From the NCBI RefSeq assembly GCF_037042905.1, contig NC_087245.1, positions 620,001 through 684,000 of the forward strand: a stretch of DNA of 64,000 nucleotides. The letters are read 5' to 3'. This document shows positions 1 to 60,070 of the stretch, piece by piece. Source of the stretch: Lytechinus pictus (taxonomy: Eukaryota). A program made the translations under genes and the position numbers. Each line of letters begins with the position of its first letter. Positions within the stretch are counted from its first letter, which is position 1. The notes beneath the pieces were generated by a model that had not been told where the DNA came from, ran no database searches, and saw only the letters and a program-made list of their open reading frames with translations.

Positions 1-461
1 AGTCCCCTGTACAGATCGCACTAAAATATTAGGTCTCTGTATATGGTGAGTGGAGCCAACGAGTAGTAGTTCAGCGGAACAACAATGCAACATGATAAAA
101 AAAAGTCATTAACAGAGACCGAAGCTTTTGGTCTAGATACATACTGCCACACGCGATAGACTAACCCAGAGAACTCCCGCCCGCGCAGCGGGCGGGAGCC
201 CAGAAGCTTACCGTGTATTTTACCGTTGTCACCGGACTAGGGTGATTTATGGTCTAAATATTTCTCCAAATGAATTGTGAAAACAGAAAGTATACAATTA
301 CCACGATTATATGGATGAAGGTCTAACGAGTGGCAGATTCCTGACATCTGGGCACAGTCTGGAACCTCAAAAAAACGAAAAGTTCTCTCCTTCTACCCCG
401 TCTCGATCGGCCATTTTTGTTAAAAATCGTAACAAAATGGCCGATCGAGACTGGGTAGAAG

Positions 462-1902
462 CACTCATCCTACGAACGAGGTTATATTATAATTAATAAT
501 ATAACCTCGTTCTCGTGTGTATACACTAGCATGGCCAAAAAAAGCATCGACTATTTTCCTCCTCTTCCCTCACCCAAACATCATGACCTTATCGAACTAG
601 ATCAAGTGTGATACTTGACATAAATTTATATAACAAATATGATCTAATTGCTGAAAATAATATGAAAAATGACTTAAAACTCACCGATTTTTCCACCTCC
701 GGTGACCGTCACTACTCTTGGTTCATTCAATGGTGTTTGACCGTGACAAATCGAAAAAGAAAAAAATATCACGAAGCCATAGAGGTCCATCCACCCGGAT
801 GGATGAAACACTACTCGTGATGCATTCTGGTAAACATGTCTCGATAGCCTCGACAGATTGGCAATTTTGTTTCGTCTAGATAAACATGTTTAAAGAATAA
901 AAAAGTCCAAAAACTCCAAATGGCTATTTTGGGGGGCTTATCTATAATATTTCTAGTACTGTATCCAGAGCATCATTTGTCTGTTTTCCTCTTCCCTTAC
1001 CCTTTCTTTCTTTTTTCTTTTGAGCGTAAATTAATTCTTTTGATTTTTTATTTCTTACTTTTTTCTCAGTCTTTGTTCTTTGTTTTTTTTTTCTTTATTT
1101 TTTAAGGGGAACTCTCCCCTCCTCCTGAAATTTAAGGGGTATTGAATGTGTAACCCCCCCCCCTCCGCCGCCTGTGACAACAATAATTCTTGTGTAAAAA
1201 AAAATAGTGAACAAAATATTGAGTGTCAGGCAGTGGCGTACCCAGGATTTTCCAAAGGGGGGGGGGGGGCAAATTCGTCCGCCAAAAAATTTGAAAAAAA
1301 AAAAAAAAAAAAAAAAGCTGGGTCTTCAAGTTCAAAAGAGGGGGCCACTTGTGGCTCGTCACAGGGATCAGTTGTGACTCGTCAGGGGGGCAGGGGTACG
1401 TCCCTTGCATGAGTTGTGACTCGTCAGGGGGTGCAGTGTGCCCTCCCTGCCCCTTAGGTACGTTAGTGGTGTCAGGTGAGAAAAAGACTACAGTCCCCGG
1501 ATCGCGGAGCTTCCTATTATTATGCTTCACCGGAAACAGGTAGGAGCTTATTGTAACCAGCTCTGTGGTTGCCACTGTTCAGTGGCTAGCTTTCTTTTAT
1601 TCAGCACAAGAGGGCGTGCTGAAATACTTACGTAGGAGACTATGGACCAGACGAGAATAAGGAAAATTTTCCTTATGATTTTACCCGATTTAGAAAGAAA
1701 TCTTCAATTGAAGGACGATATTTGACTCATTGGGCATTGGAATCCTGTTTAAGTAGAACCAAAATCAACACAAGAATTGGTAAGTCAGACTCTTTTACTT
1801 CGCGCGTTCCTACATAGAAATGACAGTGTTAGCGGCACTGGTCTCAGATCAGTCCCACCCCGTACATTTTTCTGTATGGCGAATGGTCGGGGTGAACCAG
1901 TG
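462..1902. mobile_element. CACTC-ended hairpin element (divergent member) inserted in the TAACCC MITE
   Basis: Starts CACTC, ends CAGTG; GGTAGAAG duplicated at 454-461 and 1903-1910; the uninterrupted site is visible in MITE copy 2 (~43930-43950); subterminal hairpin GAACGAGGTTA...TAACCTCGTTC. Confidence 0.65.
1231..1468. mobile_element. hAT-type MITE
   Basis: CAGTGGCGTACC...GGTACGTTAGTG imperfect TIR; 8-bp TSD GTGTCAGG at 1223-1230 and 1469-1476. Confidence 0.8.
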
Positions 1903-2134
1903 GGTAGAAGGAGAGAACTTTTCGTTTTTTTGAGGTTCCAGACTGTGCCCAGATGTCAGGAATCTGCCACTCGTTAGACCTTCATCCATATAATCGTGGT
2001 AATTGTATACTTTCCGTTTTCACAATTCATTTGGAGAAATATTTAGACCATAAATCAGCCTAGTCCGGTGACAATGGTAAAATACACGGTAAGCTTCTGG
2101 GCTCCCGCCCGAGTTCTCTGGGTTAGCGATAGAC

Positions 2135-2313
2135 CTTCATCCATATACAATGTAATCGTGGTAAGTGCATAATTTCTGTTTTCACAATTTTCTTTCCAAG
2201 TTATTGTGACCACAATCTACCCTAGTGACTAGTCCCGTGAGTAACTATGAGTAAATGCACGGTGAGCTCCTGCCCGCTTCCTTCGCGGGCCGGAGCTCCC
2301 TGGCCCTGGGTTA
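2135..2313. mobile_element. Right arm of an older, diverged TAACCC-family element that hosts copy 1
   Basis: Diverged direct match to 1975-2125, ending CTGGGTTA; joining 141-161 to 2135 rebuilds the family motif CTGCCAC..TAGACCTTCATCCATA. Confidence 0.7.
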
Positions 2314-22236: not shown

Positions 22237-24568
22237 GTGGTCAATAGGCGCCCTTATTTTTGTCTTTCCATATCATCTGAGAAAGATAGTTTTATTGTGT
22301 GTTAGGCGAGTGTATATCGGGTCAAGTAAACAATTGTGGCTATTGGTTTTTAGGATGGCCCCTTTATTGTGGACAACACTCGTCCAGTTTGTCAAATTGG
22401 ATACCAATTTTCTTCACCTAAAAACAAATCTATCCTCACCAAAATTAATAAATAGATAAATAAATGTTCCACTGTGTCCCAGATTATAATCATAATACAC
22501 GGGATTTTGCACTTTGAATGTTTACAGGAGCATTTAATGTTATATCTTATTCAAGACCAACAAACTGTTCACTGGACAAGGAACAATTTTTAAAGGTAAA
22601 GGGTATGGAATGAAACACTAGCGCTCCTTTCCCGGTCCTTTTCTTTGACTGAATGTCGTAGGGTGAGAAAATGGTTATTGTTTGGGTGGAGGGGCGAGAT
22701 AAGTCTATATTGTTATCCTTCTGTAAAATAGTCTTTGTGTGGACTCATGGGTCCATGCACTGGCTCGATCATTATGAAATCTAGATCCACTGCTATACAG
22801 TGAACTGCTATTGTCCCGGGATATTCACTTGAAAAGATAACCTAACACAATGTCGATGGTCTGATCTATTATTATCGCTTTTTGTCACGTGTTCTTGTAA
22901 ATACTGTTGACATCAAAGCAATGACATACAAGATTGGGAGATTACTATAGGCTAGAGCATCGATATTGGAGGCTATTTGAAACGTTGTGTATACCAGTAA
23001 AAAAAATTCGGTACTCGACACGTTACATAACAATTGTCATCTAATCTTCGTGTTTCGATGTTTTTTTTTTCAGGAAAGAAGCGGATAAGCACCCTTTTGG
23101 CCTTTTCTAATGTTTAATTTTAAACCTGCATATTTTTTATCAGGAGGTATCCACCGCAACATAGTCCAGGTAGTATGTGCACTGAAATCATAATCCAAAT
23201 GGACCCGGGGATGTAGGAAAGCCAGCTTTGATACAAGTTGAATAGATCACCAGCTTTGTCAGCCTTACGAGGAGTCGTCTATATAACATAATTATAACCA
23301 TAATGTTTTTCTTGTTTTGATGCATCGAGAATATCGGACTTTAATGTATAGGATCGAAGATTATACATTGGGCATCGAAAGCTATTTCATATCAGGACTG
23401 TGCACTGAATTATTTCGTTTCTTGTTTTCCTCGAGAAGAAACTTAAGAAATGATGATTTAATGCAATGCTGGAAAACACATTTTATATTTATCTCTACAA
23501 AGTCAATTGACCAACAAGATTGCATGACCTCATCCAGATACGGACTTTCTGTTGGCCCTATAGCTGCATCTTCTGAATAAATAAATATCTTCTTGTGGGT
23601 GCATGTGACATCTGGATAGTATATTTTCACACTTTGTGCAGTGCTGTAAACTTTTGTGCAGTGCTATATAGATATATTTGGACACCTTGGACTTCAAGTT
23701 GGTAAGTCACATCTTTCTAAATTAATTAATTAGTAACAAACCTTTTTGGGGATGAGTTCCTTTTGAGACAGCCACCCAAAGCGAACAATATACCGGTATT
23801 GGGGTCAGGGTTATGGTTAGGACAACTGGACAAGGGTTAATAGCTATAGGGCACTTGTTCACTGCAACCACCCTGCCTGTGGGGAATCTACAGGTTGGAC
23901 TATGGCATGCCAATGCTGTACAGAGCACACACTTTAAAAAATGATTAAAATATCACTTTTGTGACCAAAATTACTAATTTCCGTACAGTTGCAATTCATT
24001 TTTCATTAGTAACTTGGGATTATTTTTTGTATTCACTAGAGCGCTCAAAAACTTGAATTTTGGGCATATTTTTGTGAACGCCCTCTATTGGTGGAAAATA
24101 ATATGGCAATAAAATTTTCATTTTTTATCTCTATTTTTAATTAAGAAAAAAATAATTTAAAGAATCAAATTTACTTAAGGGCCAAGTTGTATGACGAATA
24201 GGTGTAATGGAAACTGTCAGTGTAAAAAAATCAAGCATTTGTCCCAAAGAAAAAGAGAAAATAAGCCAAACATTGCCATCCTTATTTTGCCACACATGGA
24301 GATATAACTGAGAACAAGGTTATATCATAACCTTGTTCATTGAATGAGTGCTATAGGGTTGGGGTCCATGGATGTCGCAAAAGGAACTCTTTCCCAAACG
24401 TTTCCACTCTCCATTATCCACTAGCAATGAATCATGTCAATTCTCTGGAAAGATTTCCTACTTATTTTTATTAACACATATGCAGATATTAATTTTACCA
24501 CATGTAGAGCATTTCCATTTATTTGATTCCAGTTAAAAAGAGCCATATAGACAAAATAATGCCTTGTC

Positions 24569-35810: not shown

Positions 35811-36178
35811 TTTTAGATAGGGAAAACAGGAGAAAGAGCGCCACCTCATTGCGCGTTCATCAATTAATTTTTGTAAACAACTGCATCGATATAGCCTCCC
35901 CTTGGATCAGGATCAAGCCAAGGCCAGGGATTCAAGGCCTAAGTTTCCCCTTGCTTAGCTTTTTGGAACCAAATCCATGATTTTCTTAGAACCTTGTGCC
36001 TCATTCATCGATTTTCTGCGTATTACAATGGTAAGCTACGCTAAAATTGCATATGTCAATGGAAATTATACGCCCCAGCTATACGTTTTTTGGACTGTAG
36101 TCCCATATGTTCATTTTTATGATGGTGTTCCGTAGGCCTAGCCCACTCAAGCCAAGGCAAGGGTAGCCAGGCGGCTTC

Positions 36179-38350
36179 CACTCACACAACATGCGAGGTT
36201 AGTATACTAACCTCGCACAACACATGTGATTTCATAGTGCATTTTGACGTTTTCATCCATCACACGAATGTGAGGGACTAAACTACGCTAAACCTTTCAA
36301 TATTTGTCCACTATGTTTATCTTGATCGTATGATCAAGTTTATTGCAAAAAGCAATCATAAATTATTTATTAAAGTGTTTTTATCGCTTACCTCCAAATC
36401 TCAACCAGGATACTTCGCTCGGTCCGTCCTTAGTCATCCTTCGTACTGCGGTGGAAATTACGCAAACAACAATCGAAATGCGAAATTTTCCTATCGAACA
36501 TTCTCGATTCAAGTCGTCGGCGCATAATAGGAAATTGTACCAAAAATCAACATAGTTCTCTATTTATTCAAACAATTTTTTCTGGGGTGTACTTGACCTT
36601 TAAGAGATTTTCCGATGAAAATATTACATGGAACTTGGAAATACAAATCATAATTTGGTTGAACAAAATGTTTTCTGTTAAAGTATAAAACAGAAGAGGA
36701 ACATATATCCTTCACGTATTTTTATATCCAAAATATGTTGCCTTAGTATGGAATAATCACAATGACATAAAATGAAAATGGGTAAAGTACCTTTCTAATG
36801 ATCATTGAGATTTCGCCTGTGGAATCATTGTTTGATAATTTTCAAAGCTTTAAATAGATGAAAATGTTCATTGAGAAAATATACATATATATGTATGAAC
36901 AAAATGATAATGTCCCGATTGTTTCGCATTACGTGTGTTAGATTGCGGGCGTTTGTGTGTGTGTGTAGGAAGCAAGATGTTCGTGTTAATGTTTGCACAA
37001 AAAAGGAGAGGGAAAGGGAAAGGAAAAGGGAGGGGGAAAGGTAGAGGAGAGAGAGGGAAAAGGAGACCATAAAATAGAAAGAAAACAAAGGAAAGGAAGA
37101 GGGGAAGGGAGAGGGAAAGAAAAATGGAAAGAGCGAGAAAAGAGTATATAGGGGAGGGAGAAAGGAAAGAAAAGAAGGGAAAGGAAAAAGCGAGAAAGGG
37201 AATGGAGGGGGCGGGAAAGGAAAGGAGAGACAATAAAAGACAGATCAGGGGAGGGGGAAAAGTAGAGGAGAGAGAGGGAAAAGGAGACCATAAAATAGAA
37301 AGAAAACAAAAGAAAGGAAGAGGGGAAGGGAGAGGGAAAGAAAAATGGAAAGAGCGAGAAAAGAGTAGGGGAGGGAGAAAGGAAAGAAAAGAAGGGAAAG
37401 GAAAAGCGAAAAAGGGGAAGGGAAAGGGAGAGAAGAAAAGAAGGGAGAACGAAAATGGGGAAAGGGAGAAGGAGAGGGGATAATGAAGGGGATAGGAAAA
37501 TGTCAAGTTTGAAGATCTGAATATTAACACTAAAACAAAATTAGACTCCCATGTTTTATTTATAAAAATACCATCTTTTTCATGATTATAAAGGTTCAAC
37601 GTCCCTGTTCTAGGTCTAAACTTCAACATAAATCTACTGGCGCTTCGCGCTTGAATTCTGGAGGTCATTCCTCTTTTAAAAGTATAGGTAATCTGTCGGA
37701 CTTTTCAAATCCCAAATTTAAATCTTAAGCGCAAATGCCCTCGCATTATTTTTCATTTAGATACAGTCCTGTCATCAATATCAAAAACTCTAAGCGCGAG
37801 CTTCGCGCTGGCATCATTTTTGTAAGTGACATTTATGATGTTGTTCATATTTAAAAAATGTCCATTTGTTGAGGTTTAAATGTCCAAAAGTTCAGCGCTC
37901 GCATAATTTGTAAGGTAAATAGACCTACCCTTTTAATTGTTATACAAAGGCGCTTATACAACGTCCAGAATGCAGTTCGGAATATTGAAAATAACTATTG
38001 GTCCCGCTATTTCTGCCCGTGCGACAAGCATTTATCATTTTGAATCATGAGATTCACCTTTAAAATATGATGAAAAAGTATCGTTAAGACTGAATTAAGA
38101 AAAAAAGAAGCTTACGTTTCACGCTCACATTTTAATTGATCCGTTAGCTTGTGATAATAATGGTGACTTCGTTAATATATCTTAGCGGACATGTCCACCT
38201 TTTGGTGCTTCAAGAAAAATAAACACAACACACAAATAATAATAGAAAAACGAACAAGAATAGAATAGATAGTTACCTATCCCACTCATGAATTCTTATT
38301 TAACAGTCCCCAAAACGTATTTTTTTCGTGTTAGCTTATTTCATATACAT

Positions 38351-38383
<33 letters not shown>

Positions 38384-38402
38384 CGGGCGTAAATAAATCA
38401 AG

Positions 38403-38458
<56 letters not shown>

Positions 38459-38512
38459 TTCACACAATATTTAAATAAAAGAGTTGCCAAAGCTGTAGTA
38501 CACGTATAACTT

Positions 38513-38586
<74 letters not shown>

Positions 38587-39751
38587 TCTCCTCATCATGG
38601 TTATAAAAAGTGCTCAGAATGTTTTATTTTCAAGTCCTTGTATCAGAATCTTCAGCTCGGGCAGCTCTATCGCATTTTGATTACTATCCTGTTAATTTAT
38701 TTACTTGAACAAAATATTTAAAATGTCCAGCTTTTAGAACATCTATATCAAAAAAAAGGTATTCACCTTTGATCATAGATGAGGAAGAAGAAAAAAGTGA
38801 AAAAAAATAGGAAACAAACTAACGAATTAATGTGACATAATTTTTCTTCATTTCAAGGCGACTCTTTACATTTCATCATCGCTGATGGCGCTACAATAGA
38901 AAATACCGCTTGACAGCAAAAAAAAAACAGAAAGAGGAAAATAATGCTGAGCGTCTAAAATGCAGCTAGCAGTACAAGCTGCAGAACCGTAAACAAGGTG
39001 TCACGCGCGTAAAACATTCCCCATAGACTTGTGTGTTAAAATGGCACTTTTGAAAAATTCATAAAAAATAAATGTGAAATTAGAGGGTGGAATGTTTACT
39101 ACCAATGGATTGGATATATATCTGACATTCCAAATCTGACCAGGAAAGGGTACCGTAGCCAGCTCATTTTAAAAATAAATCGCCATTTATGAAGATAACT
39201 ATGAATCGATCGAATTCATCAACTGAAACAGTAAAATAGCCCTAATTATTCCGCCAGTCAAAAAAAAGTTCCAAGTCACTTATTTATCTTCCCAATTTGG
39301 GCGAAGTAAGTTCAGTAGTTACCATTTCTAGAATCAGTGTTAGATTTTGAATCACATTCATACATTTTTGTCAATCAGCAATATCAAATTGACAAAAATT
39401 CGAATGGGTTGGGTCGAACGAATATCTTTAGCCCTCCTGATGTAATTAGGCTCGTGGAACCACAAACATCTTGTGAATAATATCGCGCGCCCTCTTTAAG
39501 CAAAAGTTTACAACCACAATTACCCTGCGGTATCTACGTGAAGATCACGAGAAAATGCATTTTTTTTCTTAAAAACACACCAAAGAGAAGACAAGAAACG
39601 ATCCATATGGTTCGGTAAGTGTCATAGCACAATTAGAAACATTATTTTAAAAGGAATGGCTTAGTTATTTTAGTAAAAAGGGTGTGAAAAATTCGCGTGC
39701 ACCATGTGCATATGAATCCTTCGCACGCGAGATGCATTGATCCCATGAGTG
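36179..39751 (+). mobile_element. CACTC hairpin element copy A
   Basis: CACTC...GAGTG ends; 9-bp TSD GGCGGCTTC at 36170-36178 and 39752-39760; subterminal palindrome TGCGAGGTTAGTATACTAACCTCGCA. Confidence 0.85.
38997..39461. mobile_element. 465-bp insertion with 4-bp TSD inside copy A
   Basis: ACAA duplicated; imperfect TIR GGTGTCACGCGC / GCTCGTGGAACC; absent from copy B (empty site ~40160-40172). Confidence 0.8.
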
Positions 39752-39876
39752 GGCGGCTTCTAACCCAGGGAGCCCAGGGGCTTACCGTGTATTTGACCAT
39801 ACTCACAGGACTAGGGTGATTTATGGTCTAAATATTTCTCCAAATGAATTGTGAAAACAGAAAGTATACAATTACT

Positions 39877-42115
39877 CACTCATGGGATCAATGCATCTCG
39901 CGTGCGAAGGATTCATATGCACATGGTGCACGCAAATTTTTCGCACCCTTTTTACTGAAATAACTATGCCATTCCTTTAAAAATAATATTTCTAATTGTG
40001 CTATGACACTTACCGAACTATATGGATCGTTTCTTGTCTTCTCTTTGGTGTGTTTTTAAGAAAAAAAAAGCATTTTCTCGTGATCTTCACGTAGATACCG
40101 CAGGGTAATCGTGGTTGTAAACTTTTGCTTAAAGAGGGCGCGCGATATTATTCACAAGATGTTTGTTTACGGTTCTGCAGCTTGTACTGCTAGCTGCATT
40201 TTAGACGCTCAGCATTATTTTCCTCTTTCTGTTTTTTTTTTTGCTGTCAAGCGGTATTTTCTATTGTAGCGCCATCAGCGATGATGAAATGTAAAGAGTC
40301 GCCTTGAAATGAAGAAAAATTATGTCACATTAATTCGTTAGTTTGTTTCCTATTTTTTTGCACTTTTTTCTTCTTCCTCATCTATGATCAAAGGTGAATA
40401 CCTTTTTTTTTATATCTGTTCTAAAAGCTGGACATTTTAAATATTTTGTTCAAGTAAATAAATCAACAGGATAGTAATCAAAATGCGATAGAGCTGCCCG
40501 AGCTGAAAATTCTGATACAAGGACTTGAAAATAAAACATTCTGAGCACTTTTTATAACCATGATGAGGAGACCTATATATACATATGTATATGAAATAAG
40601 CTAACACGAAAAAGACGTTTTGGGGACTGTTAAATAAGAATTCATGAGTGGGATAGGTAACTATCTATTCTATCCTTGTTCGTTTTCTATTATTATTTGT
40701 GTGTTGTGTTTATTTTTCTTGAAGCACCAAAAGGTGGACATGTCCGCTAAGATATATTAACGAAGTCACCATTATTATCACAATTAAGCTAACGGATCAA
40801 AATGCGAGCGTGAAACGTGAGCTTCTTTTTTTCTTAATTCAGTCTTAACGATACTTTTTCATCATATTTTAAAGGTGAATCTCATGATTCAAAATGATAA
40901 ATGCTTGTCGCACGGGCAGAAATAGCGGGACCAATAGTTATTTTCAATATTCCGAACTGCATTCTGGACGTTGTATAAGCGCCTTTGTATAACAATTAAA
41001 AGGGTAGGCCTATTTACCTTACAAATTATGCGAGCGCTGAACTTTTGGACATTTAAACCTCAACAAATGGACATTTTTAAAATATGAACAACATCATAAA
41101 TGTCACTTACAAAAATGATGCCAGCGCGAAGCTCGCGCTTAGAGTTTTTTATATTGATGACAGGACTGTATCTAAATGAAAAATAATGCGAGGGCATTTG
41201 CGCTTAAGATTTAAATTTGGGATTTGAAAAGTCCGACAGATTACCTATACTTTTAAAAGAGGAATGACCTCCAGAATTCAAGCGCGAAGCGCCAGTAGAT
41301 TTATGTTGAAGTTTAGACCTAGAACAGGGACGTTGAACCTTTATAATCATGAAAAAGATGGTATTTTTATAAATAAAACATGGGAGTCTAATTTTGTTTT
41401 AGTGTTAATATTCAGATCTTCAAACTTGACATTTTCCTATCCCCTTCATCATCCCCTCTCCTTCTCCCTTTCCCCATTTTCGTTCTCCCTTCTTTTCTTC
41501 TCTCCCTTTCCCTTCCCTTTTTCGCTTTTCCTTTCCCTTCTTTTATTTCCTTTCTCCCTCCCCTACTCTTTTCTCGCTCTTTCCATTTTTCTTTCCCTCT
41601 CCCTTCCCCTCTTCCTTTCTTTTGTTTTCTTTCTATTTTATGGTCTCCTTTTCTCTCTCTCTCCTTTACCTTTCCCCCTCCCCTGATCTGTCTTTCATTG
41701 TCTCTCCTTTCCTTTACCGCCCCCTCCATTCCCTTTCTCGCTTTTTCCTTTCCCTTCTTTTCTTTCCTTTCTCCCTCCCCTACGACTTGAATCGAGAATG
41801 TTCGATAGGAAAATTTCGCATTTCGATTGTTGTTTGCGTAATTTCCACCGCAGTATGAGGATGACCAAGGACGGATCGAACGAAGTATCCTGGTTGAGAT
41901 TTGGAGGTAAGCGATAAAAACACCTTAATAAATAATTTATAATTCCTTTTTCAAATAATACGATCAAGATTAACATAGTGGACAAATATTGAAAGGCTTG
42001 GCGTAGTTTAGTCCCTCACATTCGTGTGATGAATGAAAACGTCAAAATGCACTATGAAATCACATGTGTTGTGCGAGGTTAGTATACCGTACTAACCTCG
42101 CATGTTGTGTGAGTG
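39877..42115 (-). mobile_element. CACTC hairpin element copy B (inverted, near-identical to copy A, with deletions)
   Basis: CACTC...GAGTG; 9-bp TSD ACAATTACT at 39868-39876 and 42116-42124. Confidence 0.85.
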
Positions 42116-42123
42116 ACAATTAC

Positions 42124-42810
42124 TAGGGTGTTTGGAGAAAAATATTATTTTTCTTATTTCAAGAAAATATCACATTTTCTTTGTGAATTTGAAGAGAAAT
42201 GACCTTCAGACTGACAGAAATGTAACATTTTTGAAAAAAATCTGATTATTGGCTACTAAAAAGAAGAATGAAATTGGGTCAATTTTCAGCATTTCTCTGC
42301 CATAGACTGTGTAGTTAAGAAATGGACACACACAAATCCAAATTTTTAGCTTCCGAGAGCTGTTAAGTGTTATAAATTTATTATTAATGCCAAAAACTTG
42401 TCCATAAAGAGTCCAATAGGATTTTTTATGCTCTTTCTGATGGTATGATTTTTATAAAGATTTGGAAACCAGATCACAATGAAAAATTGCGACAAAGTGC
42501 AAAATTGTGCAAAACAGAAATTTCATTTTCCCATAGAAAACGCATGGGGAAATGGCAATCTCAACACACACAAAAATAAGGGTTTGCAATTTATCTCTAA
42601 ATCCTCAATTCAAATGATCATATAAACTTGTCCTTACTGTCAAAAGAAGCCCCTGAATTTTCTCTTTCCATACATGCCAAACACAAGTTAATAATCAATT
42701 CAGATCACGTTTTTCTAGTAGCCTGAACTTCCCGAAAAAAATGTGCCACATTTTCCCCTAAATCAGCCTGTCTTATGCTGACACTTTTCAGTGTGGCTTC
42801 AGACACCCTA
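42124..42810. mobile_element. TAGGGTGT-ended non-autonomous element (hAT- or P-like)
   Basis: TAGGGTGT / ACACCCTA; (A)CAATTAC duplicated (7-8 bp); the host MITE sequence resumes afterwards. Confidence 0.75.
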
Positions 42811-42940
42811 CAATTACCACGATTATATTTATATGGATGAAGGTCTAACGAGTGGCAGTTTCCTGACATCTGGGCACAGATTGGAACCTCAAAAAAACGA
42901 AAAGTTCTCTCCTTCTATCCCCGTCTCGATCGGCCATTTT

Positions 42941-43900
42941 TGTCTCACCTGCATAGCAGAGTGAGACTATAGGCGCCGCTTTTCCGACGGCGGCGGCGAC
43001 GGCGGTGGCGGCGTCAACACCAAATCTTAACCTGAGGTTAAGTTTTTGAAATGACAGCATAACTTAGAAAGTATATGGACCTAGTTCATGAAACTTGGCC
43101 ATAAGGTCAATCAAGTATTACTGAACATCCTGCCTGAGTTTCATGTCACATGACCAAGGTCAAAGGTCATTTAGGGTCAATGAACTTAGACCATGTTGGG
43201 GGAATCAACATCAAAATCTTAACCTAAGGTTAAGTTTTTGAAATGTCATCATAACTTAGAAAATATATGGACCTAGTTCATGAAACTTATACATAAGGTT
43301 AATCAAGTATCACTGAACATCCTGCATGAGTTTCACATCACATGACCAAGGTCAAAGGTCATTTAGGGTCAATGAACTTTGGCCGAATTGGGGGTATCTG
43401 TTGAATTACCATCATAACTTTGAAAGTTTATGGATCTGATTCATGAAACTTGGACATAATAGTAATCAAGTATTACTGAACATCCTGTGCAAGTTTCAGG
43501 TCACATGATCAAGGTCAAAGGTCATTTAGGGTCAATGAACTTTGGCCAAATTGGGGTATTTGTTGAATTACAGCCATAAATTTGAAAGTGTGTTGGTCTA
43601 GTTCATAAAACTTGGACATAATAGTAATCAAGTATCACTGAACATCCTGTGCGAGTTTCAGGTCACATGATCAAGGTCAAAGGTCATGTAAGGTCAAAGA
43701 ACTTTGGCCACGTTGGGGGTATTTGTTGAATTGCCATCATATCTCTATAAGTGTATTGGTCTAGTTCATAAAACGTGGAAATAAGAGTAACCAAGTATCA
43801 CTGAACATCTTGTGCGAGTTATAGTAGTTTTCAAAATCAGCACTGCTGCTATATTGAATCGCGTGATGCAGGTGAGACGGCCAGAGGCATTCCACTTGTT
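42941..43900 (+). mobile_element. Helentron-associated (HINE/DINE-like) element with internal tandem repeats
   Basis: 5' GTCTCACCTGCAT with subterminal inverted ATGCAGGTGAGAC at 43866-43878; (GGC)n-like tract; about five 160-190-bp tandem units; inserted in a T-run with no clear TSD. Confidence 0.75.
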
Positions 43901-44113
43901 GTTAAAAACCGTAACAAAGTGGCCGATCGAGACTGGGGTAGAAGGAGAGAACTTTTCGTTTTTTGAGGTTCCAGTCTGTGCCCAGATCACTCACACTAGT
44001 AGTAGTACGAGGTTAGTAGTATTAGTATATATATACTAACCTCGTACACCGAACCGTGTTTGTCCCTTGATTTCGAAGTAGTCGGCAAACATCGCTTCAT
44101 TGCTGAAGTAATA

Positions 44114-45814
44114 CACTACTCAAAAAAAGTTAAGGACCACTTTTTAATGTGTGTATACAATTTTCAAACCGGGTGTTGTATTTCTAGAAATACCCGAATA
44201 TGGCTGTCTTGAATCTCCTCAAACACCCTGTAACAATTTCACACATGGGTGGTTTCAGTTGTTGCATGATGTCTCTCGCATTATTGCATATCCTGAAAAG
44301 TGGGCCCATTGTGAAGTGGTACAAATGTGGATTCAAATGCATTTTCTGTCTTTAGTCTCTACAATCAACAAATTGCTGACAACAGCAATGCCAAGATACA
44401 GCTGTCCAGGATGCCATCAAACACAATGAAATCAATTTCACACATGCAGTTCTTTCATGTCTCTTGCATCATTGCAATGTGCCCGTACAAAAGTGGCTTC
44501 CAAAGCATTTTCCGTCTTTAGTCTGTACAATAAACAACTTTCCTACAACAGCAATGCCAAGACACCACCTAAGTGAAACAGATGTAGCCAGAGCCCTAGG
44601 GATGCTGGAAGCTGGCCTCAGTCAGCGAAGAGTAGCCAGAATGATGGGCGTGTCACACAGTGTCATTAGCAGAGCAAATCAAAGACACCGAGAGACAGGG
44701 CTATACTCCGAGAGACCCCGCAGTGGCCGACCAGTTTCGACAACCCCTAGAGATGATCGCTACTTGACGAATCTCAGCCTCCGCAACCGCTTTCACAGTG
44801 CACGCCGCCTCAACAATGACTTCGCTGCAGCAACTGGAGTGATTGTTTCCACTCAAACAATCCGTAACCGACTTCACAGAGCCAATATGCATGCCAGACG
44901 GCCAGCTCAGTGTGTCCCACTCACCCCTGCTCACAGAAGAATTCGTCTCAACTGGGCCCGGGAGCATGTCAGATGGACCAGACAGCAATGGCGTAGAGTT
45001 CTGTTCACAGATGAGAGCAGATTTTCCCTTGACCACAATGATGGACGTTCGAGAGTCTGGAGGCGACCAGGAGAGAGATTTGCAGACCCCTGTATTGCAG
45101 AACATGACCGTTATGGGGGAGGCAGCGTCATGGTGTGGGGAGGCATCACCTACGCCAACCGTACTCGTCTCTACGTGGTCCCAGGGGGAGCAATGACAGG
45201 AGTGAGGTACAGGGATGAGGTCCTTGAACCTAAAGTGGTGCCATTTGCAGAAAATGTGGGACAAAACATCATTTTCATGGATGACAATGCCGGTGCCCAC
45301 CGAGCTAGGGTGGTGACCGAGTTCCTTGAGGGCCAGGGGATTGAGCGTATGGAGTGGCCAGCGAGGTCCCCGGACTTAAACCCGATAGAGCACGTCTGGG
45401 ACATGATGGGGAGGAGTCTCGAGCAGCTCGAAGCCCATCCACTTGGACTGCAGCAGCTGGGTGTGGCTCTGGAGGCTGCATGGGATGCACTGGACGTCAG
45501 AGACATCAATCGCCTCATCAGCTCCATGAGACAGCGCTGTGAAGCCGTTATTGCTGCAGGAGGTGGTGACACTCAGACATTCGTTTTTACCACTTCATGT
45601 CGGTAGCTGATACCCCTCGGGGCCCACTTTTCAGGATGTGCAGTGATGCGAGAGACATTGTGCAACAACTGAAACCACCCATGCGTGAAATTGATTACAG
45701 CGTGTTTAAGGACATTTAGGACAGTTGTACTGAGGTATTTCCAGAAATAAAACACCTTGTATAAAATCTTTATGTACGTTTTAAAAAGTGGTCCTTAACT
45801 TTTTTTGAGTAGTG
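44114..45814 (+). mobile_element. Full-length Tc1-family DNA transposon
   Basis: TA TSD; perfect 34-bp outer TIR extending imperfectly to ~195 bp; intact transposase ORF. Confidence 0.95.
44554..45606 (+). CDS. Tc1 DD34E transposase (350 aa from the first ATG)
   Basis: N-terminal HTH region, RSGRP motif, catalytic FTDESRF / MDDNA / SPDLNPIE with 34 residues between the second D and E; the ORF-track start at 44464 is TTG. Confidence 0.95.
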   Translation: MPRHHLSETDVARALGMLEAGLSQRRVARMMGVSHSVISRANQRHRETGLYSERPRSGRPVSTTPRDDRYLTNLSLRNRFHSARRLNNDFAAATGVIVSTQTIRNRLHRANMHARRPAQCVPLTPAHRRIRLNWAREHVRWTRQQWRRVLFTDESRFSLDHNDGRSRVWRRPGERFADPCIAEHDRYGGGSVMVWGGITYANRTRLYVVPGGAMTGVRYRDEVLEPKVVPFAENVGQNIIFMDDNAGAHRARVVTEFLEGQGIERMEWPARSPDLNPIEHVWDMMGRSLEQLEAHPLGLQQLGVALEAAWDALDVRDINRLISSMRQRCEAVIAAGGGDTQTFVFTTSCR

Positions 45815-47993
45815 TATTTGCCGAAACTCCTTCTCGCTACTCACCGGGGCTCTTTCCGGTAAGTAGCAATACATTAAAAAATTTTAAATGTAATTTGAAT
45901 ATAATATTAATAATCGGTCAAAAAGAGCAAATTTCGCTTACCTCGGCCTGGAAAGTAACTTCGCTTGTCTCTTCTACGGAAATACAAGGAGGCCCGTTGG
46001 TGGCGCTAATAAATTTCACAACCTTGATTCAGCTCCTCGGTAATTTTATAACTGTGTCTAAATTCTTTGAATGCGCAATTCTTATGATTAATTTACTAAT
46101 TATGGGCACCAATAAATGAAATACCTTCAAACATGTCAAAAACATAATTCAATATTATTATTGGCGATGACAACACTTTTCTGCAATTAATTTAAAACGA
46201 TGACTAATAAAGAAAAATTGAAAAAAATATACGTGCCTGGAACAAAACCAGCAGTACAGGCTTTAACGAACATCAATAATACGGTATATACCAAAGTCTT
46301 TACAATGAAAAGATTGGACACTTCACGGACTTTGCGTAATGACCTGCGTCAATTTGCGTGTAAAATAGTGTAGGTGCCTAGTCTTTCCCTTGTCGTGTCT
46401 TTGATATGAATATAAATCGCGCGCCCTCTTTAGACGAAAATTGATATCGGCGCTGACCAAATTTTATCTTCACTAAAGATCAAGAAAATATACATATATT
46501 TTAGAAGAAACTTCAAGGAGAAGTCACGGAAGGATCTAAATGATTGGGTAAGTGTCATAGCAAAATGTGAAATCCCTAATTATATGTGATGTTTTATGTG
46601 GGCGAAAGCCCAGTAGTATATGGATGTGTCGTGTGTGTCGCGTTATTATGAATGATATTCCTTTGCACTCGAGATGATATGAGCCCATGGGTGGCCCAGA
46701 TGTCAGGAAACTGCCACTCCTTAGACCTTCATCCATGTAATCGTGGTAATTGTATACTTTCTGTTTTCACAATTCATTTGGAGAAATATTTAGACCATAA
46801 ATCACCCTAGTCCCGTCAGTATGGTCAAATACGCGGTAAGCCCCTGGGCTCCCGCCCGCTGCGCGGGCGGGAGCTCCCTGGGTTAGGAGGCTTCTAGAGA
46901 GTAAAAATCATTTACTAACGTAAGGTTACTCTCATACGAAGCCAGGGAGTCCTCCCTATTCATCTGCGTGTACCGCAAAAAATCTGAAACTTTTGCCCCC
47001 GAGATTTCTACTTTCCTTCTAAAAAGTCTAGTTCTAAATCATGTACATGGGATAAAACTTCATTTCCGACATTTCTATGCTCTCACGCTCGCGTCCGTAA
47101 CGTTGGGGAAGTACAATAAGAAACAAGATGGCGGCTTAAACATCGGGCAAGTCTCTTCCGTCTTTTCACAATATTTTTTCATTTTTTTAAATGAATTCTT
47201 GTTTAAAAATAACAACGAGAGCGTAGAAATGTCGGAAATTAAGTTTTATTCCATGTACATGATTTAGGTCTAGATCTTTTAGAAGGAAAGTAGAAATCTC
47301 GGGTTGAAAGTTTCAGGTTTTGGCTTCCTTTGTGTGGGTCTATAAGATAGAAGCCCTGGCTTCGTATGAGAGTAACCTTACGTTAGTAAATGATTTTTAC
47401 TCTCTAGAAGCTGCCTGGCTACTCAAGGGTTCGATACATGCCGCCGTGCTAGTATTGAGGACTCCATGATGATGTCTTTATTAAATACTTTGACATATAC
47501 TTCTTCATCATTGGAGTCTTGAACCGCCCTATATGTATAAGAGACACATGTAAACAAAGATGGATTTCCCTAGGAAATCCATCTTTTAACAGTGAGTAGG
47601 CGCTGGTCAAAAAATTGGGAATGTCCCAGTTTACAGAATACAGGGACTGTCTCAGTTTTCAAAGATTTCTCCACACAAGAAATCTAGGAAAGTTCATTCA
47701 CCTGTCAAGTGCCGACATCAATTGAGTGCGCTAGTCAATGTAAACATATCAGGTTTCATATAACAAGATTATTGGAAGACAGCAAGTCATGAAAAATAGA
47801 CGGTGAACTGGGGGAATTGAGGTCACTGAATCTATTTTAAGCACTCTCAATCCCCGTAATTACTGTCTATGTCCCGCAGGGGTAAGTGAAAAAAAACTGT
47901 CCCCATAAACAAGGATAATCTCAATTTATCAAGACATGATTTGTCCTGGTTTAAGAGGATATGAGGATATGTTTAATATAAAAATCACGTATA

Positions 47994-49323
47994 CAGACCT
48001 GCCAACTGTCCCGATTTTATCGGGATCGTCCCGATTTACAACTTCCAAATGGCCAAAAATCGGGACGTCCCGATTTTTGAAATTTCATGTGAGAAAAAAA
48101 AACATTGTAAACTAAACCGAAAGAGGGCGTCATCATATTACCGCCGTATTTTTTCTTCATGCTATGCTACGTACTGCGATTCGCACAGCGTGTGTACAGT
48201 ATGCACTCTGCAGTTTAGTGTTCAGCAGTGCGTAATAGGTAATACATGTAGTATGGTTTGCTGAACCGCACTACGAAAAAAAAGTGACTTGGCCGTCGCA
48301 CACGGAACATGTGTTATTGTGTTTTTGTCTAGGCTTTTCGATTAATCTTCGATATCCTGGCGAATCAGTGCGGGCGACAAGTTCCGAACGCACGCACATC
48401 TAAGAGCGCAAAGCAGCGGCACAAATCGCGATATATAGCGACTGGTAAATACGTCTGTAAGGATGATGACGTCATCCAAGATGGCAACTTACGTTGACCA
48501 ACGAAAGGATCGAAGGTGACGATGTTTCGATTATCATTTGAAAGGAATTATAGCGGTAACTGCGGTCTAAGGTACAATATTTCTGAATTTTATACATTTT
48601 TACGAAAATATGAATGTAATTTCTTTTTCATAATGTGGTATTTTATGTACAAAAAAACGATCGGAAAATCGGTTTCCGCCGAATGTTAGATCTAACATTA
48701 CTGCTAATACGTTGTCTGTACGTACGGACCTCCAAGCTCTTCAGTCTATGTATTGGTGAGTGAGCCAACGCAGTTCAGCGGAACAACCAAAATACAGAGA
48801 CTGAAGCTTTTGGTCTAAGACATTACATGCTACGCCGCTTCTTACAGTGTAAGTGTGCTCAAGAATGCAAAGACAGCCACGTACAAAGCACTCCATCAGA
48901 AGGAAGGTGCTTCAAGTTCCACAGAATAATATTTAAGTTCAGTTGAAAGGTAGGTATATGTATAGTGTAAATAGTGCAAAATGTTGGGTGACATCAAAAT
49001 TAAGAGACTTGCTGTTGTATTAATTTACAAATAAATTACAAATAAATACAAATAATTTACAAATGATAAAAATGTACAAGCCCACTTTGATTACACCACA
49101 GTGAATTTCAAAAGATTTTGCAACCTTCAATACATTCATTTCAAGTATGAAAATTGTGTTCCCTTGGCCTTTATAGTTGCTAAAATCCAACAGCTTCGCG
49201 GGGCGCTGCCCTCTGAACCCCCGCAAGGGGCGCTGCCCCTGGACCCCGCTGGGGGACTAGGCGACCCCCAGCCGGTGGTTGTCCAGATTTGGGGTTTCCA
49301 ATTTCCAAATGTTGGCAGGTATG
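47994..49323. mobile_element. hAT-like non-autonomous element
   Basis: CAGACCTGCCAAC / GTTGGCAGGTATG TIR; GTCCCGATTT subterminal repeats; only CGTATA duplicated. Confidence 0.65.
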
Positions 49324-49716: not shown

Positions 49717-52700
49717 CACCCATGGGTTCATTTCATCTCGCGTGCGAAGGAATATCAAATGCACATGATGCACGCGACACATGCAAATCTTTACAAAGAT
49801 TACATTAAATTTAAATTTCACATTGTGTGATAGCACTTACCAGGCATATGGATCCTTTGGTGACTTCTCTTTGCTGTTTTAAAAAAAAAGGATTTTTTTT
49901 TATCTTCACGTACATGTAGATGCCCTTCGATCAGCGACAAAATCAATTTTGGCCTAAAGAGGGCGTGCGATATTATTTATGAACCGGTTTGTTTACGCAT
50001 GAAATAACGGGTCTGAAGCTTGTACTGCTAGCTGCATTCTAGGCGCTCAGCATTATTTTCTTGCTCGTTCAGTCCACTTTCATCATCTTGTCAAAAGATG
50101 GCGTACATGTACTTCACCTAGGTATGTGACAAAAAAAAATAAAAATCATGGAATTACGTTGTAACCTAGTCCATTTGAAAGGGCTGAAAAAAACATTTAA
50201 AGGACAAGTCCACCCCAACAAAAAGTTGATTTGAATAATAAGAGAAAAATCCAACAAGCATAACACTGAAAATTTCATCAAAATCGGATGTAAAATAAGA
50301 AAGTTATGATATTTTAAACTTTCGCTTAATTTTATAAAACAGTTATATGCACATCCTGGCTGTTATGCAAATGAGGAAACTATGACGTCATCCACTCACT
50401 ATTTCTTTTGTATTTTATTATATGAAATATTCTAATTTTCTCCTCATTGTCAAGTAATACAACGATTAATTCCTCCCTGAACATGTGGAATTAGCATTGT
50501 TTAATACTATATGGTTCAGTCAAGTTGGTCCTTATTGTCAAATCTATAAAAAATGAAATATTGTATAATAATAATTCAAACAAAAAACAAAAGAAATAGT
50601 GAGTGATGGACATCATCGACTGACTCACCTAGTAATGTGCATATCACTGTTTTGTGAAAAATAAGAGAAACTTTAAAATGTCATAACTTTCTTATTTTAC
50701 ATCCGATTTTGATGAAATTTTCAGCACTATGCTATGTTTGATTTTTCTCTATTTATTCAAGTAAGCAATTTCCTGGGGTAGACTTGACCTTTAAAATGGT
50801 ATATTTATTATAAACCATTACACTAGGCCAAATATTAAGAGAGTTATGATTTTTTTAATATTAAAAATCTGATTGAATTATTGCCATTGTCTTACCATTG
50901 CGACCATTGAAAATGTGTGACCGACCGTGACCAAAAAATGTTTTTTTTACAAAATTATACAAATTATTAATTTTACTCTATAAAACTGAGTAAAAACAGG
51001 TGATGAGAAAGGATATCAATATTTGTCTTAATTCATCAATTTTTTAAATATTTAATTAATAATTATCAGTTAGTAAATTGATATGTTAATTGTTCATAAA
51101 CTCATTACCAAACACATACAAACTTATATAATTTCCTTATTGTTTGGAATTTTTTGACAGGAACTTCTGCAACAACACATCTTCTAAATAAAACTTTCAG
51201 AATGATAAAACATTGAATACTTACAGAAAGATCTCAGTATTTGATAAATGTATTGATTAGTAATTATCAATTAGCATATTAATTAGTTATCTATTCAAAT
51301 CTCACTGCTGCAAAAAAAAAATCCTGATTTGGTATATTTTGATGGAAGTTTCTGCTAAGGAAACATGGAATATAATGGATATGTGATCTATGAATATAAG
51401 GAATGGAAGTATTTAAAAAACATTCAACAATTTCATGTACATCATTTACAAACATGTACATGTATGACAACTATTATTGGTTGGCATCCATTGAATTTGT
51501 ACCAAATGGGAAAAGCCGTAGATGGCGTCAACCAGTGTTCGCCAGTTTCTGGTCGCTTTAACATGTGTTTTATTGAACAAAATTTTGATGTCAGTTTCTA
51601 CTCTTATATATACATGTATCAGTAACAAAAATAAAATCTTTTATAATTTATAATTAAACTGTGTATGAGCACATGATTCAATGCAGGACCTAGAATTATA
51701 TTATTTTTTATTATTATTATTTTTTCATTATTTTTTTCTTGGGTGACCTCAGGCTAAGTTTGCCTAAATAAATGATAAATGACATCCCTAATATCTTACA
51801 ACAAAACACTGAAAACAAGCTAAAATTGTGTAATGTGTATATTTATATTCATCAAAGGATGTAATAACTAATGATCTGAATATAAACAAGTAGACTCTAG
51901 ATCTCAAAAGCAAATAATATTTCAATCAATGCAATGCACAAACTGCTAGCATAACCCCTCTGAGCCGGTGCACCCATAACAGGCCTCCCGGCGACACTGC
52001 ACTCATCATGATGGTCGCATAGCACGCAACACTCGCGGCAGTTTGCTATTTCTGGCAATCAATTTTTAGGATGTAAAAAATAAATGATCTGATTTTTAGA
52101 TTCGATTTATATTCACCACACACCAAGAAAAATATATGAACAAGCTGTTAAAATAAGGTTTAAAAACTGTCAAAAGTTACCTTCAGGGCTGGTCACGATG
52201 TATAAAGACAACATTAGACTTTCACATGAGCCAAATCCAACTTCCATGCTTCCGATCTTCAAAATTTGACATCGAGGCGAAGGGGATTTTTTTCAGCTAC
52301 GTCATCAGTGAAAATAAGCCAAATTGGCGAGAAACCACCAAATCTACACCCATTTGAAGCCACCTCTTACAGAGCAACCCAAGCTCGTTTTGAAACCGCT
52401 GCCGGTGCCGCGGTATTGAGATCACATCGCGCGATAGTCACATACCTACTTCACCTATAAGTATATACATGAGATGCACCCTGTTGATTTTTTGTACAAT
52501 TTCCTATTATGCGCCGACGACTTGAATCGAGACTGTTCGATAGGAAAAATTCGCTTCTCGATTGTTGTTTACGTAATTTCCAGTATCAAGGATCTTCGGA
52601 CGGACCGGACGGAGTATCTAAGCGTTAAAAATCATTTATAAATAATTTCGTCTATATTTTTTAAATTAAGTTATTTAATAAGATTTAAATTTATGTAGTG

Positions 52701-52832
52701 AATAAATGTATAAGGTTTTGGCGTGTTTTATTCCCTCACATTCGTGTGATGAATGAAAACGTCAAAATCCATAGTCAAATCACATGCGTTGTGCGAGGTT
52801 AGTATAGCTAACCTTGCATGCATGTATGAGTG
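49717..52832 (-). mobile_element. CACTC hairpin element copy D (older)
   Basis: CACCCATGGG...TGAGTG; both ends homologous to copy B; decayed 9-bp TSD GCACGACGT / GCACAACAC (two CpG>CpA changes). Confidence 0.75.
50201..50790. mobile_element. Kolobok-like palindromic MITE
   Basis: TTAA TSD on both sides, AGG...CCT termini, long inverted arms. Confidence 0.85.
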
Positions 52833-53919: not shown

Positions 53920-54898
53920 CTGGAGTCCAGATAAAATACTTCCAAGCAATTGCATGAAAAGTCGAAATAGATATTGCTACGAATATTATAATCTCATCAA
54001 ATTTTCCATTTCACTTTTACCGATCCATTTGGAGTCCATTTGGTGACTTACTTGAGCACTCTGTTCCCTCTGTTCCTCATCTTTTCTTGCTCTTGACGTC
54101 GCGTGCTGCCTGTCCAACAACATCAATTTTTGGCCTATAGAGGGCGCACGATTTATATTCATGTCAAAGACACGACAAGGGAGAGACTAGGCACCTAGGC
54201 CTAAACTATTTTACACGCAAATCGACGCAAAGCATAGGTATAGTCACATATTGTATTACCGGACACTATCATGATTCTGGACGTGCGTATTAGTGCGTAA
54301 AAAAACAATTTCCTACTGTAGGACTTCCGCAGTTTAATTTCACAGAGCAATACATAGAACAAGATTGCAAAAACAAGGCGAAAAAATCAAACTTTTACCT
54401 TATTTATCTCTAAAATTACAGAAAATGCTTAAAATATCGTATAACATTGTTTTGCATTAATATATTTTCTGACGGAAATATGGGCCTGATTTGCCGAATT
54501 TCAATCTAATCGCTCCTTCGATCGATTGTGTTGAGGTGTGTTGTGGGTGATATCGTCGATGGCTGGTTCTCAAGTTACCGTGCGCAAGGTTTTCCGAGAA
54601 TGTATAGCCGTCGACGATCGAAAGCGCGTTGATAGATCTTAATGCAATGAGCGTCATGCGCACACTAAGAACGAGCATGATATTGGAAAGTGCCATGGAA
54701 CATGCAGAACTTTAAAAAAAAAATAATTAGTTAGCAAACACAAATTTATTACCAACATCTGCTTAGATTCGATATAAAAAAAAGCAAACAAAAAACTTAG
54801 AATTTACTCATGATATGGGCATTTTCACCACAGATGGACACAAAGGCAAAAAAAATCAAATTGATATTCATGTCAAATGAATTATGTTTTATAATAAT

Positions 54899-59376: not shown

Positions 59377-60070
59377 ATGGAATCTGACCCTGACCTCAGT
59401 TCAACTAATGAACTCAGTGATGAAGAAGAAGCTGATACCCTTCTGGATCGCATCCCACCTCCACCTGTTGACAGGACACACAAGGCCCGACAAGGAAGCA
59501 GAGTCATCAAACCAAAGGAGCGGAAGCATATCCTGATAGCTCTAGTAACAGTACTTGTCTTCACCACACAGTTTGCCTGTAGAGGATACCTGACAGGGGT
59601 TCTCTCCACCATCCAGCATAGTTTAGATATCTCACAAGCCGAAGCATGGCTTATTGATATAGCCTTTGATTTTGGCATCGTCATTGGGATTGCCTTGTTG
59701 TTATCCTGCAGAAGATGTGTCAACCGACCCCGTTGTGTCGCTGGTGGGGCGTTTCTGATAGGAGTTGGTCTCTTTGCTTCGTCTGTGCCTTACTTTATGC
59801 TTCATCCATCTCCTGCTTGGCTGAAGTCACCTGGTATCTCTAAAGTACCTCAGTATGAACTATGTGATCTTGGTAAGGTGCCAGACAGTAATCCTGTTGA
59901 TAATGATGATGATGATGATGAAACTCTGGATTACATTAAGAGTTTGAGTGGTAAGGAGTTGGCTATCATATGTGGGATGTTTGTTGCTGGTTTAGGAGCA
60001 GCTCCTCAGTGGGTCTTTGGTTTTCCCTATCTTCAAGATCGTACTCAGAAGCATCCTATCGTGATTGTTA
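59377..60070 (+). CDS. SLCO/OATP-like transporter, first coding exon (alternative ATG at 59347; acceptor at 59270)
   Basis: GYLTGVLSTIQHSLDIS..., RPRCVAGGAFLIGVG...VPYF and GLGAAPQWVFGFPYLQD follow the OATP TM1-TM4 pattern; GTAAGT donor, phase 1; in-frame stop at 59272. Confidence 0.8.

What the first reader, a model, noticed from the sequence alone, without database searches (positions are those of the whole stretch)
36161..47424. CACTC elements appear to target the TAACCC MITE
Seen: four of five CACTC copies lie inside or flush against a ~0.5-kb TAACCC MITE. One is in copy 1 (462), two are in the arms of copy 2 (39877, 43988) and one abuts its left end (36179). These are at least three distinct subfamilies at two loci ~36 kb apart, and the emptied MITEs make up only ~1 kb of the 64-kb window. 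Inference: a transposon-on-transposon targeting system, by cruciform recognition or a shared transposase that binds the MITE arms.
Basis: partly seen in the sequence, partly recalled or inferred. Interest (0 to 1): 0.75.

Follow-up and report, generated by a model that had tools for sequence, protein, structure and literature searches.

The report
Foldback MITE as shared landing pad
A 0.5-kb hairpin-shaped jumping element has been hit again and again by several unrelated jumping-gene families, so it is likely a general landing pad for mobile DNA rather than the private target of one family.

Summary
The four junctions are real: exact 8- or 9-bp target duplications at 462, 36179, 39877 and 43988. 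Only two targets are wholly TAACCC DNA. TAACCC-type DNA is also hit by three non-CACTC elements (3 seen, about 0.44 expected). The one CACTC junction read outside this assembly lies in a different MITE family. Insertion points share no position, no motif, and no word with CACTC ends, and one landed after the palindrome was probably already broken. Cruciform and shared-transposase models therefore lack support. Best reading: a general MITE hot spot, like rice Ditto, hit by a gene-less 8/9-bp-TSD family of uncertain superfamily. One oddity remains: both young twin copies are centred exactly on the target duplication of another element. The genome-wide test could not be run, because no genome is held. 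The scan has not noted these families on other DNA (four sequence look-ups), but its unchecked notes report similar MITE hot spots elsewhere in this genome.

The parts
162..2125 (.). TAACCC foldback MITE copy 1 (515 bp when emptied), 9-bp TSD GCGATAGAC, arms 1.4% diverged
462..1902 (+). CACTC element, 462-type (A end with hairpin, B end CACTGGTTC), 8-bp TSD GGTAGAAG (9 bp if the last G is counted as target); carries a small element with CAGTG end and 8-bp TSD at 1231-1468
2135..2313 (-). older TAACCC-like arm (15% diverged) into which MITE copy 1 itself inserted
23745..24398 (.). small inverted-repeat element (30-bp arms, 147 bp emptied, GGGTTA-rich interior) that hosts the sixth copy
36161..47424 (.). 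outer palindromic MITE (548 bp emptied, arms 11% diverged) hosting the whole cluster at its bases 10-18
36179..39751 (+). CACTC element, subfamily 1, 9-bp TSD GGCGGCTTC, identical to the TAACCC copy 2 target; carries a 4-bp-TSD element at 38997-39461
39761..46885 (.). TAACCC MITE copy 2 (517 bp emptied), TSD GGCGGCTTC/GGAGGCTTC, arms 2.9% diverged
39877..42115 (-). CACTC element, subfamily 1, inverted twin of 36179 (3-4% different at ends, 1.2% inside), 9-bp TSD ACAATTACT centred on the TAGGG element's 7-bp TSD
42124..42810 (.). non-CACTC element with TAGGGTGT ends and 7-bp TSD CAATTAC, in the MITE left arm
42942..43899 (+). non-CACTC, Helentron/HINE-like element (12-bp subterminal inverted repeats, GGC microsatellite, 163-192-bp tandem repeats, T-rich site) at the MITE axis; ends approximate
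   Evidence: features compared with PMC4067079 passages
43988..46693 (+). CACTC element, subfamily 2, 8-bp TSD GCCCAGAT, in the MITE right arm
44113..45815 (+). Tc1 transposon with an intact ORF (44560-45606), a passenger inside the 43988 element; not the CACTC transposase
47043..47051 (.). position in the outer MITE arm that matches the flank of a subfamily-1 CACTC B end in run X1 (target inferred; same or paralogous MITE copy)
49717..52832 (-). older CACTC element outside both MITEs; 15-16% from subfamily 1; flanking 9-mers match at only 6 of 9
53997..54235 (+). relic of CACTC B-side sequence without termini

Best explanation
The TAACCC foldback MITE is likely a general insertion hot spot that collects several unrelated transposon families, and the gene-less CACTC family (8- or 9-bp target duplications, two unlike ends) is one frequent visitor that probably leans to small inverted-repeat elements in general, not to TAACCC alone. 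Shown: the nesting, the TSDs, the three non-CACTC insertions, two CACTC copies outside TAACCC in the window, and one outside junction in another MITE. Inferred: a trans-acting cut-and-paste transposase (MULE-like by its 8/9-bp TSDs; superfamily untested) picks targets by local DNA or chromatin properties such as GC-richer, bendable or accessible DNA, not by reading a TAACCC sequence. Sites already used once are then reused, so insertions pile up.
For: TAACCC-type DNA (1.22 kb) holds three non-CACTC insertions: TAACCC copy 1 in an older arm, the TAGGG element and the HINE-like element. About 0.44 are expected from a hand catalogue of 17 others (P=0.010). A contig of run X15 joins a TAGGG end to TAACCC-like arm sequence at a second position (joint 42917 to 42121, depth 3). 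Two of six window CACTC copies are outside TAACCC. The X1 B-end flank matches the outer MITE arm 30 of 30. Four of six window sites fall inside inverted-repeat elements up to 1.5 kb, which cover 15% of the emptied window (P=0.006; 0.012 by locus). No fixed position and no shared motif (null at or above observed in 290/300 and 271/300). TSDs are 27 of 51 G+C against 37% for the window (P=0.016). Precedent: rice Ditto MITEs are targeted by many families (PMC5172404, passages).
Against: CACTC makes up 4 of 7 insertions in or flush with TAACCC DNA against 2 of 19 elsewhere (Fisher P=0.028), which leans to family preference. Three subfamilies hit two separate MITE copies. The twins look like separate insertions: X1 carries the left twin's base at 7 of 8 positions. 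The inverted-repeat preference vanishes under other cut-offs (P=0.016-0.53), and that automatic test scored 36179 as outside. The background catalogue was made by hand, and one entry (17901) is probably the inner half of another. A general hot spot does not itself explain two concentric reuses of earlier target sites. The X15 TAGGG joint is a single low-depth contig.
Confidence: 0.55

Rival explanations
1. Family-specific targeting: the CACTC transposase, or a partner, recognises TAACCC MITE sequence or its cruciform and inserts in or beside it.
For: 4 of 6 copies in or flush with about 1 kb of 48.7 kb (P=2.9e-6 naive; 0.0026 by locus). Three subfamilies and two MITE copies are involved. Fisher P=0.028 with the flush copy. 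An RGGTT word like the CACTC hairpin arm lies within 25-44 bp of 3-4 of 7 targets (P=0.04-0.08, chosen after the fact).
Against: The young sixth copy and the X1 junction are outside TAACCC. None of the 7 plus 8 joints listed for the four runs links a CACTC end to TAACCC DNA, while the empty MITE joint has depth 406 in X15; this is weak, because contigs drop rare junctions and 108 loose ends were not shown. Targets start at MITE positions 134, 293 and 337, and one lies just outside the end, around an axis at 264. The longest shared word between 10 CACTC ends and the arm is 7-10 nt, matched by 10-196 of 200 shuffles. The 39877 target was probably already split by TAGGG, which would preclude a cruciform there.
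Confidence: 0.15
2. Target-site reuse across families: subfamily-1 CACTC elements are drawn to the junction left by another transposon and cut concentrically on its target duplication, whichever family made it.
For: The 36179 TSD is exactly the 9-bp TSD of TAACCC copy 2. The 39877 TSD is the TAGGG element's 7-bp TSD plus one base on each side. By hand arithmetic (no call), an exact hit on one of about 5 earlier TSD copies in about 1.1 kb is near 0.5% per insertion. Double insertion at one site is known for P and hobo within a family (PMC5932611, passages).
Against: Only two cases, both at one locus. No earlier element is visible at 462, 23852, 43988 or the X1 site. Intrinsically good target sites would be reused with no attraction to ends. 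The order of insertion at 39877 rests on one base.
Confidence: 0.15
3. One local pile-up plus chance: copy 2 lies in a locus that tolerates or attracts insertions, copy 1 was hit once by luck, and the pair of families was picked after the fact among many possible pairs and windows.
For: Three of four cases are within 8 kb. Many catalogued elements in the window are nested in others. The strict count is 2 of 6 (P=0.0064 before any correction).
Against: Copy 1 and the older arm, 36 kb away, hold two further insertions. The twins seem not to be a direct local copy of each other.
Confidence: 0.15

Closest known systems
Nested MITE multimers of rice and maize, especially Ditto (Jiang and Wessler 2001, as reported in the review PMC5172404; passages read)
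   Same: A MITE family hit by many other repeat families, plus self-insertion; nested copies arise from independent insertions.
   Different: Animal genome; the target is a long-armed 9-bp-TSD foldback and the visitors include an 8/9-bp-TSD family with unlike ends; no genome-wide count here.
Double insertion at one target site, P element and hobo (PMC5932611; passages)
   Same: A second element reuses the first element's target, leaving a TSD copy between the two, as at 39752-39760.
   Different: There within one family; here across families and across TSD lengths (9 on 9, 9 on 7).
MULEs such as Aedes Muta1 (PMC5225508, PMC6446971; passages)
   Same: Mixed 8- and 9-bp TSDs without sequence preference; long TIRs with a 9-bp TSD fit the TAACCC MITE.
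   Different: CACTC elements have only a 3-6-bp terminal match, unlike ends and a subterminal hairpin; no transposase was found.
Dada target-specific DNA transposons (PMC3706591; passages)
   Same: DNA transposons without long TIRs that were proposed to use a short repeat shared with their multicopy target.
   Different: Dada inserts at one fixed site with 6-7-bp TSDs; CACTC sites are scattered and share no word with the element.
Bacterial IS4321/IS5075, which target Tn21-family inverted repeats (recalled; only a search listing seen)
   Different: Fixed position in a defined repeat; not seen here.

Membership tests
Dedicated transposon-on-transposon targeting system | Insertion at a fixed position or fixed distance from a motif in the target | tested here: not met
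   positions 134, 293, 337 and outside the end; motif score reached by 290/300 and 271/300 null sets
Dedicated transposon-on-transposon targeting system | Young copies confined to the target family | tested here: not met
   23852-24350 with perfect TSD outside TAACCC; X1 junction in the outer MITE family
Dedicated transposon-on-transposon targeting system | Genome-wide enrichment in the target family | not testable with these tools
   no genome held; four collection scans empty
General MITE insertion hot spot (Ditto-like) | Hit by several unrelated families above background | tested here: met
   3 non-CACTC insertions vs about 0.44 expected, P=0.010, hand catalogue, this window only
General MITE insertion hot spot (Ditto-like) | Excess holds over many copies genome-wide | not testable with these tools
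   the empty MITE is the common form in X15
MULE (CACTC family) | TSD of 8-11 bp, 8 and 9 mixed as in Muta1 | tested here: met
   three 8-bp and two 9-bp perfect TSDs; PMC6446971, PMC5225508
MULE (CACTC family) | Long TIRs (absent in non-TIR MULEs) | tested here: not met
   terminal match of 3-6 bp only
MULE (CACTC family) | MULE DDE transposase in an autonomous partner | not testable with these tools
   the only transposase inside a copy is a Tc1 passenger
MULE-type foldback MITE (TAACCC family) | Long TIRs and 9-bp TSD | tested here: met
   arms over 200 bp; TSD 9/9 and 8/9
CACTA/EnSpm (CMCT clade) | CAC..GTG termini | tested here: met
   PMC12730594 passages
CACTA/EnSpm (CMCT clade) | 2-5-bp TSD | tested here: not met
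   8-9-bp TSDs
Zisupton / KDZ or hAT | 8-bp TSD | tested here: inconclusive
   3 of 5 perfect TSDs are 8 bp, 2 are 9 bp; the Zisupton paper is not held
Dada | Fixed site in a multicopy small-RNA gene, 6-7-bp TSD | tested here: not met
Helentron/HINE (central insert) | 12-15-bp subterminal inverted repeats, microsatellite or tandem repeats, T-rich site | tested here: met
   against PMC4067079 passages; 3' stem-loop not folded, autonomous partner not sought

The most novel reading that the evidence does not exclude
The CACTC family is a eukaryotic cut-and-paste transposon that seeks out other DNA transposons, landing in small foldback MITEs of several families and centring its cut on the target duplication at their ends: cross-family, end-directed targeting by a transposase of a still unassigned superfamily.
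Probability: 0.2. Interest if true: 0.7.

Novelty: new member of a known kind. Interest (0 to 1): 0.32.

Why it matters
As a general hot spot it is an animal example of a pattern known from plant MITEs, and useful mainly for annotating this genome. If the end-directed or family-specific reading held genome-wide, it would be a rare eukaryotic DNA transposon that uses other transposons as safe landing sites. That would make target capture by such a transposase testable, and it would give a reason to find the autonomous partner of this unclassified family (unlike ends, conserved hairpin, mixed 8/9-bp TSD).

Tried and rejected
Genome-wide test: no assembly is held. Exact-pattern scans for the CACTC A end and the MITE arm in metagenome contigs, and for the MITE arm and B end in viral contigs, gave 0 matches each. 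Earlier-findings look-ups by sequence gave nothing for three stretches and one unrelated 3-of-96-word hit; by place 'near' and by the word TAACCC, nothing. Of four runs laid, X24 (raw reads) and X18 covered only 7 and 9 of 30 bins, mostly low-complexity DNA, and were set aside as not this species; contig depths of X15 and X1 were not used as copy numbers. Idea that the twins are a simple local hop with deletions: weakened, because the left twin's extra B-side piece is a 4-bp-TSD insertion and X1 carries the left twin's base at 7 of 8 positions. Idea that the fifth copy is nested in an older CACTC tip: junction match not significant (E=0.39). Fixed-distance motif and shared-word tests were negative. 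CACTA/EnSpm rejected on TSD length. Tc1 rejected as the mobilising enzyme (TA-type element nested inside one copy). Passages of PMC6839031, PMC9297572 and PMC11071193 gave nothing usable; PMC6911290 was seen as abstract and outline only. The Fisher and Poisson figures used a rough count of 14 and are superseded. I make no claim that this is absent from print: seven literature searches cover open papers only, and Repbase was not available. No supplements were read.
Full report
Setting. The window is 37% G+C, repeat-dense animal DNA.

Anatomy. The TAACCC element is a foldback MITE of 515-517 bp with 9-bp TSDs. Copy 1 (162-2125) has arms 1.4% apart, copy 2 (39761-46885) 2.9% apart, and the two copies differ by 5.7%. 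The CACTC family has two unlike ends. End A is CACTCA followed by a hairpin with arms like CGAGGTTA/TAACCTCG; it folds better than shuffles in all 4 A ends folded (z -2.1 to -8.2). End B begins CACTCATGGG, CACCCATGGG or CACT(G/T)GTTCAC. A scan of all 367 CACY starts and 359 RGTG ends for exact 8- or 9-bp flanking repeats gave 7 pairs: five CACTC-family elements (462, 23852, 36179, 39877, 43988), one artefact of the inverted twins, and one unrelated element. Shuffled windows give 0-1 such pair. The copy at 49717-52832 has only a 6-of-9 flank match and is 15-16% from subfamily 1. No copy has its own transposase; the one long ORF (44560-45606) is a Tc1 passenger.

Observation. The element at 23852-24350 is young (perfect TSD), carries the hairpin, resembles the 462 copy at both ends, and sits in a small element with 30-bp inverted arms, not in TAACCC DNA. 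Of the four, only 462 and 43988 cut pure TAACCC DNA. The 36179 target is bases 10-18 of an outer 548-bp palindromic MITE and is the same 9-mer that TAACCC copy 2 duplicated. The 39877 target is the 7-bp TSD of a TAGGG-ended element plus one base each side, the last being that element's first T. On the 48,729-bp emptied window, uniform chance gives P=2.9e-6 for 4 of 6, 0.0064 for 2 of 6 and 0.0026 for 2 of 4 loci, uncorrected for picking this pair afterwards.

Is it specific to CACTC? TAACCC-type DNA also took a TAGGG element (42124-42810), a Helentron/HINE-like element at the axis (about 42942-43899), and TAACCC copy 1 itself, which sits in an older arm (2135-2313). Against a hand catalogue of 17 other elements (one probably counted twice), 0.44 are expected and 3 seen, P=0.010. 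The CACTC share is 3 of 6 in TAACCC DNA against 3 of 20 elsewhere (P=0.11), or 4 of 7 against 2 of 19 with the flush copy (P=0.028). So the MITE draws several families; an extra pull on CACTC is possible but not shown.

Outside evidence. Four public runs were laid on 39752-42945. X24 and X18 do not hold these families. X15 (283 records laid, 30 of 30 bins) and X1 (24 records, 29 of 30) do. In X15 the empty-MITE joint has depth 406. None of the listed joints (7 in one table, 8 in the other) links a CACTC end to TAACCC DNA. This is weak evidence, because assemblers drop rare junctions. Of 20 loose ends shown (108 not shown), one lies at a CACTC terminus. It is on an X1 contig of 735 letters with 9 differences from the 39877 copy, and it runs from end B into 30 letters that match the outer MITE arm at 47043-47072 exactly. 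That insertion is absent from this window and lies in a different MITE family, either at this locus in another haplotype or in another copy; contig cleaning may favour junctions into repeats. One X15 contig (depth 3) joins a TAGGG end to TAACCC-like arm sequence at another position. X1 carries the left twin's base at 7 of 8 B-end positions, and the twins differ by 3-4% at the ends, so they are probably separate insertions rather than a direct local copy.

Mechanism tests. Targets start at MITE positions 134, 293 and 337, and one lies outside the end, around an axis at 264: no fixed or mirror position. No fixed-distance motif appears among 6 or 7 targets (null at or above observed in 290/300 and 271/300; 42/60 with free orientation). 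The longest word shared by any of 10 CACTC ends and the MITE arm is 7-10 nt, reached by 10-196 of 200 shuffles. The 39877 target most parsimoniously formed after TAGGG had split the arm, which argues against cruciform capture there (inference from one base). Weak positives: TSDs are 53% G+C against 37% (P=0.016); an RGGTT word lies near 3-4 of 7 sites (P=0.04-0.08, post hoc); 4 of 6 sites fall in inverted-repeat elements up to 1.5 kb (15% of the window, P=0.006), but P ranges up to 0.53 under three other cut-offs.

Reading. Most likely (0.55) the TAACCC MITE is a general landing pad and CACTC a frequent visitor with a loose leaning to small inverted-repeat elements, with good sites reused. Family-specific targeting (0.15), cross-family reuse of earlier target duplications (0.15) and local pile-up plus chance (0.15) remain. 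The concentric reuse at both twin sites is the least ordinary feature and the one worth a genome-wide count.

Comparison. A review reports MITE multimers in rice, with Ditto targeted by many families (PMC5172404, passages). P and hobo double insertions keep a TSD between the elements (PMC5932611, passages). Muta1 makes 8- or 9-bp TSDs without sequence preference, and MULE TSDs are 8-11 bp (PMC5225508, PMC6446971, passages); this fits the TSDs but not the very short termini of CACTC. CMCT elements share CA..TG ends but make 2-5-bp TSDs; Zisupton makes 8-bp TSDs (PMC12730594, passages). Dada inserts at fixed sites (PMC3706591, passages). The superfamily stays unassigned. Unchecked notes on this genome describe other MITE hot spots, motif-guided stacking and a two-ended family nested in itself. 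They prompted my motif and self-nesting tests, which were negative; I could not tell whether that two-ended family is this one.

Verdict. Real nesting, partly miscounted; a targeting system is not shown. New member of a known kind, interest 0.32.

Noticed in passing
window 44113-45815: Tc1 with an intact ORF; two database proteins are 98% identical. Nineteen runs under nine organism codes and several metagenome labels hold 44-56% of the words of 43880-46900, about the Tc1's share of that stretch. X18 holds 51% of them yet lacks the neighbouring families.
   Followed up: partly
window 36179-39751 and 39877-42115: The inverted twins differ by 3-4% at both ends but 1.2% inside; recombination between variants or gene conversion could explain it.
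   Followed up: partly
window 39881 and 40011 (run X15): A contig joins B-side sequence back to the B tip through 9 letters that complete a perfect hairpin around the terminal CCCATGGG palindrome. Unexplained rearranged end.
   Followed up: no
window 42124-42810 and 50119-52448: Two elements with TAGG ends and 7-bp TSDs (the second can also be read as 9 bp); the second lies inside the old CACTC copy.
   Followed up: no
window 15486-20617: 5-kb palindromic element holding an 8-bp-TSD CAGTG-ended element (16716-17900) in one arm.
   Followed up: no
window 33-135 and 48744-48817: The sequence left of MITE copy 1 recurs inside an unrelated element (47994-49323), a shared internal module.
   Followed up: no
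window 23745-24398 and about 28620-28780: Small inverted-repeat elements with telomere-like GGGTTA/TAACCC-rich interiors.
   Followed up: partly
window 59275-60165: Open frame that looks like an organic-anion-transporter (SLCO/OATP) exon; the name is recalled, no search was run.
   Followed up: no
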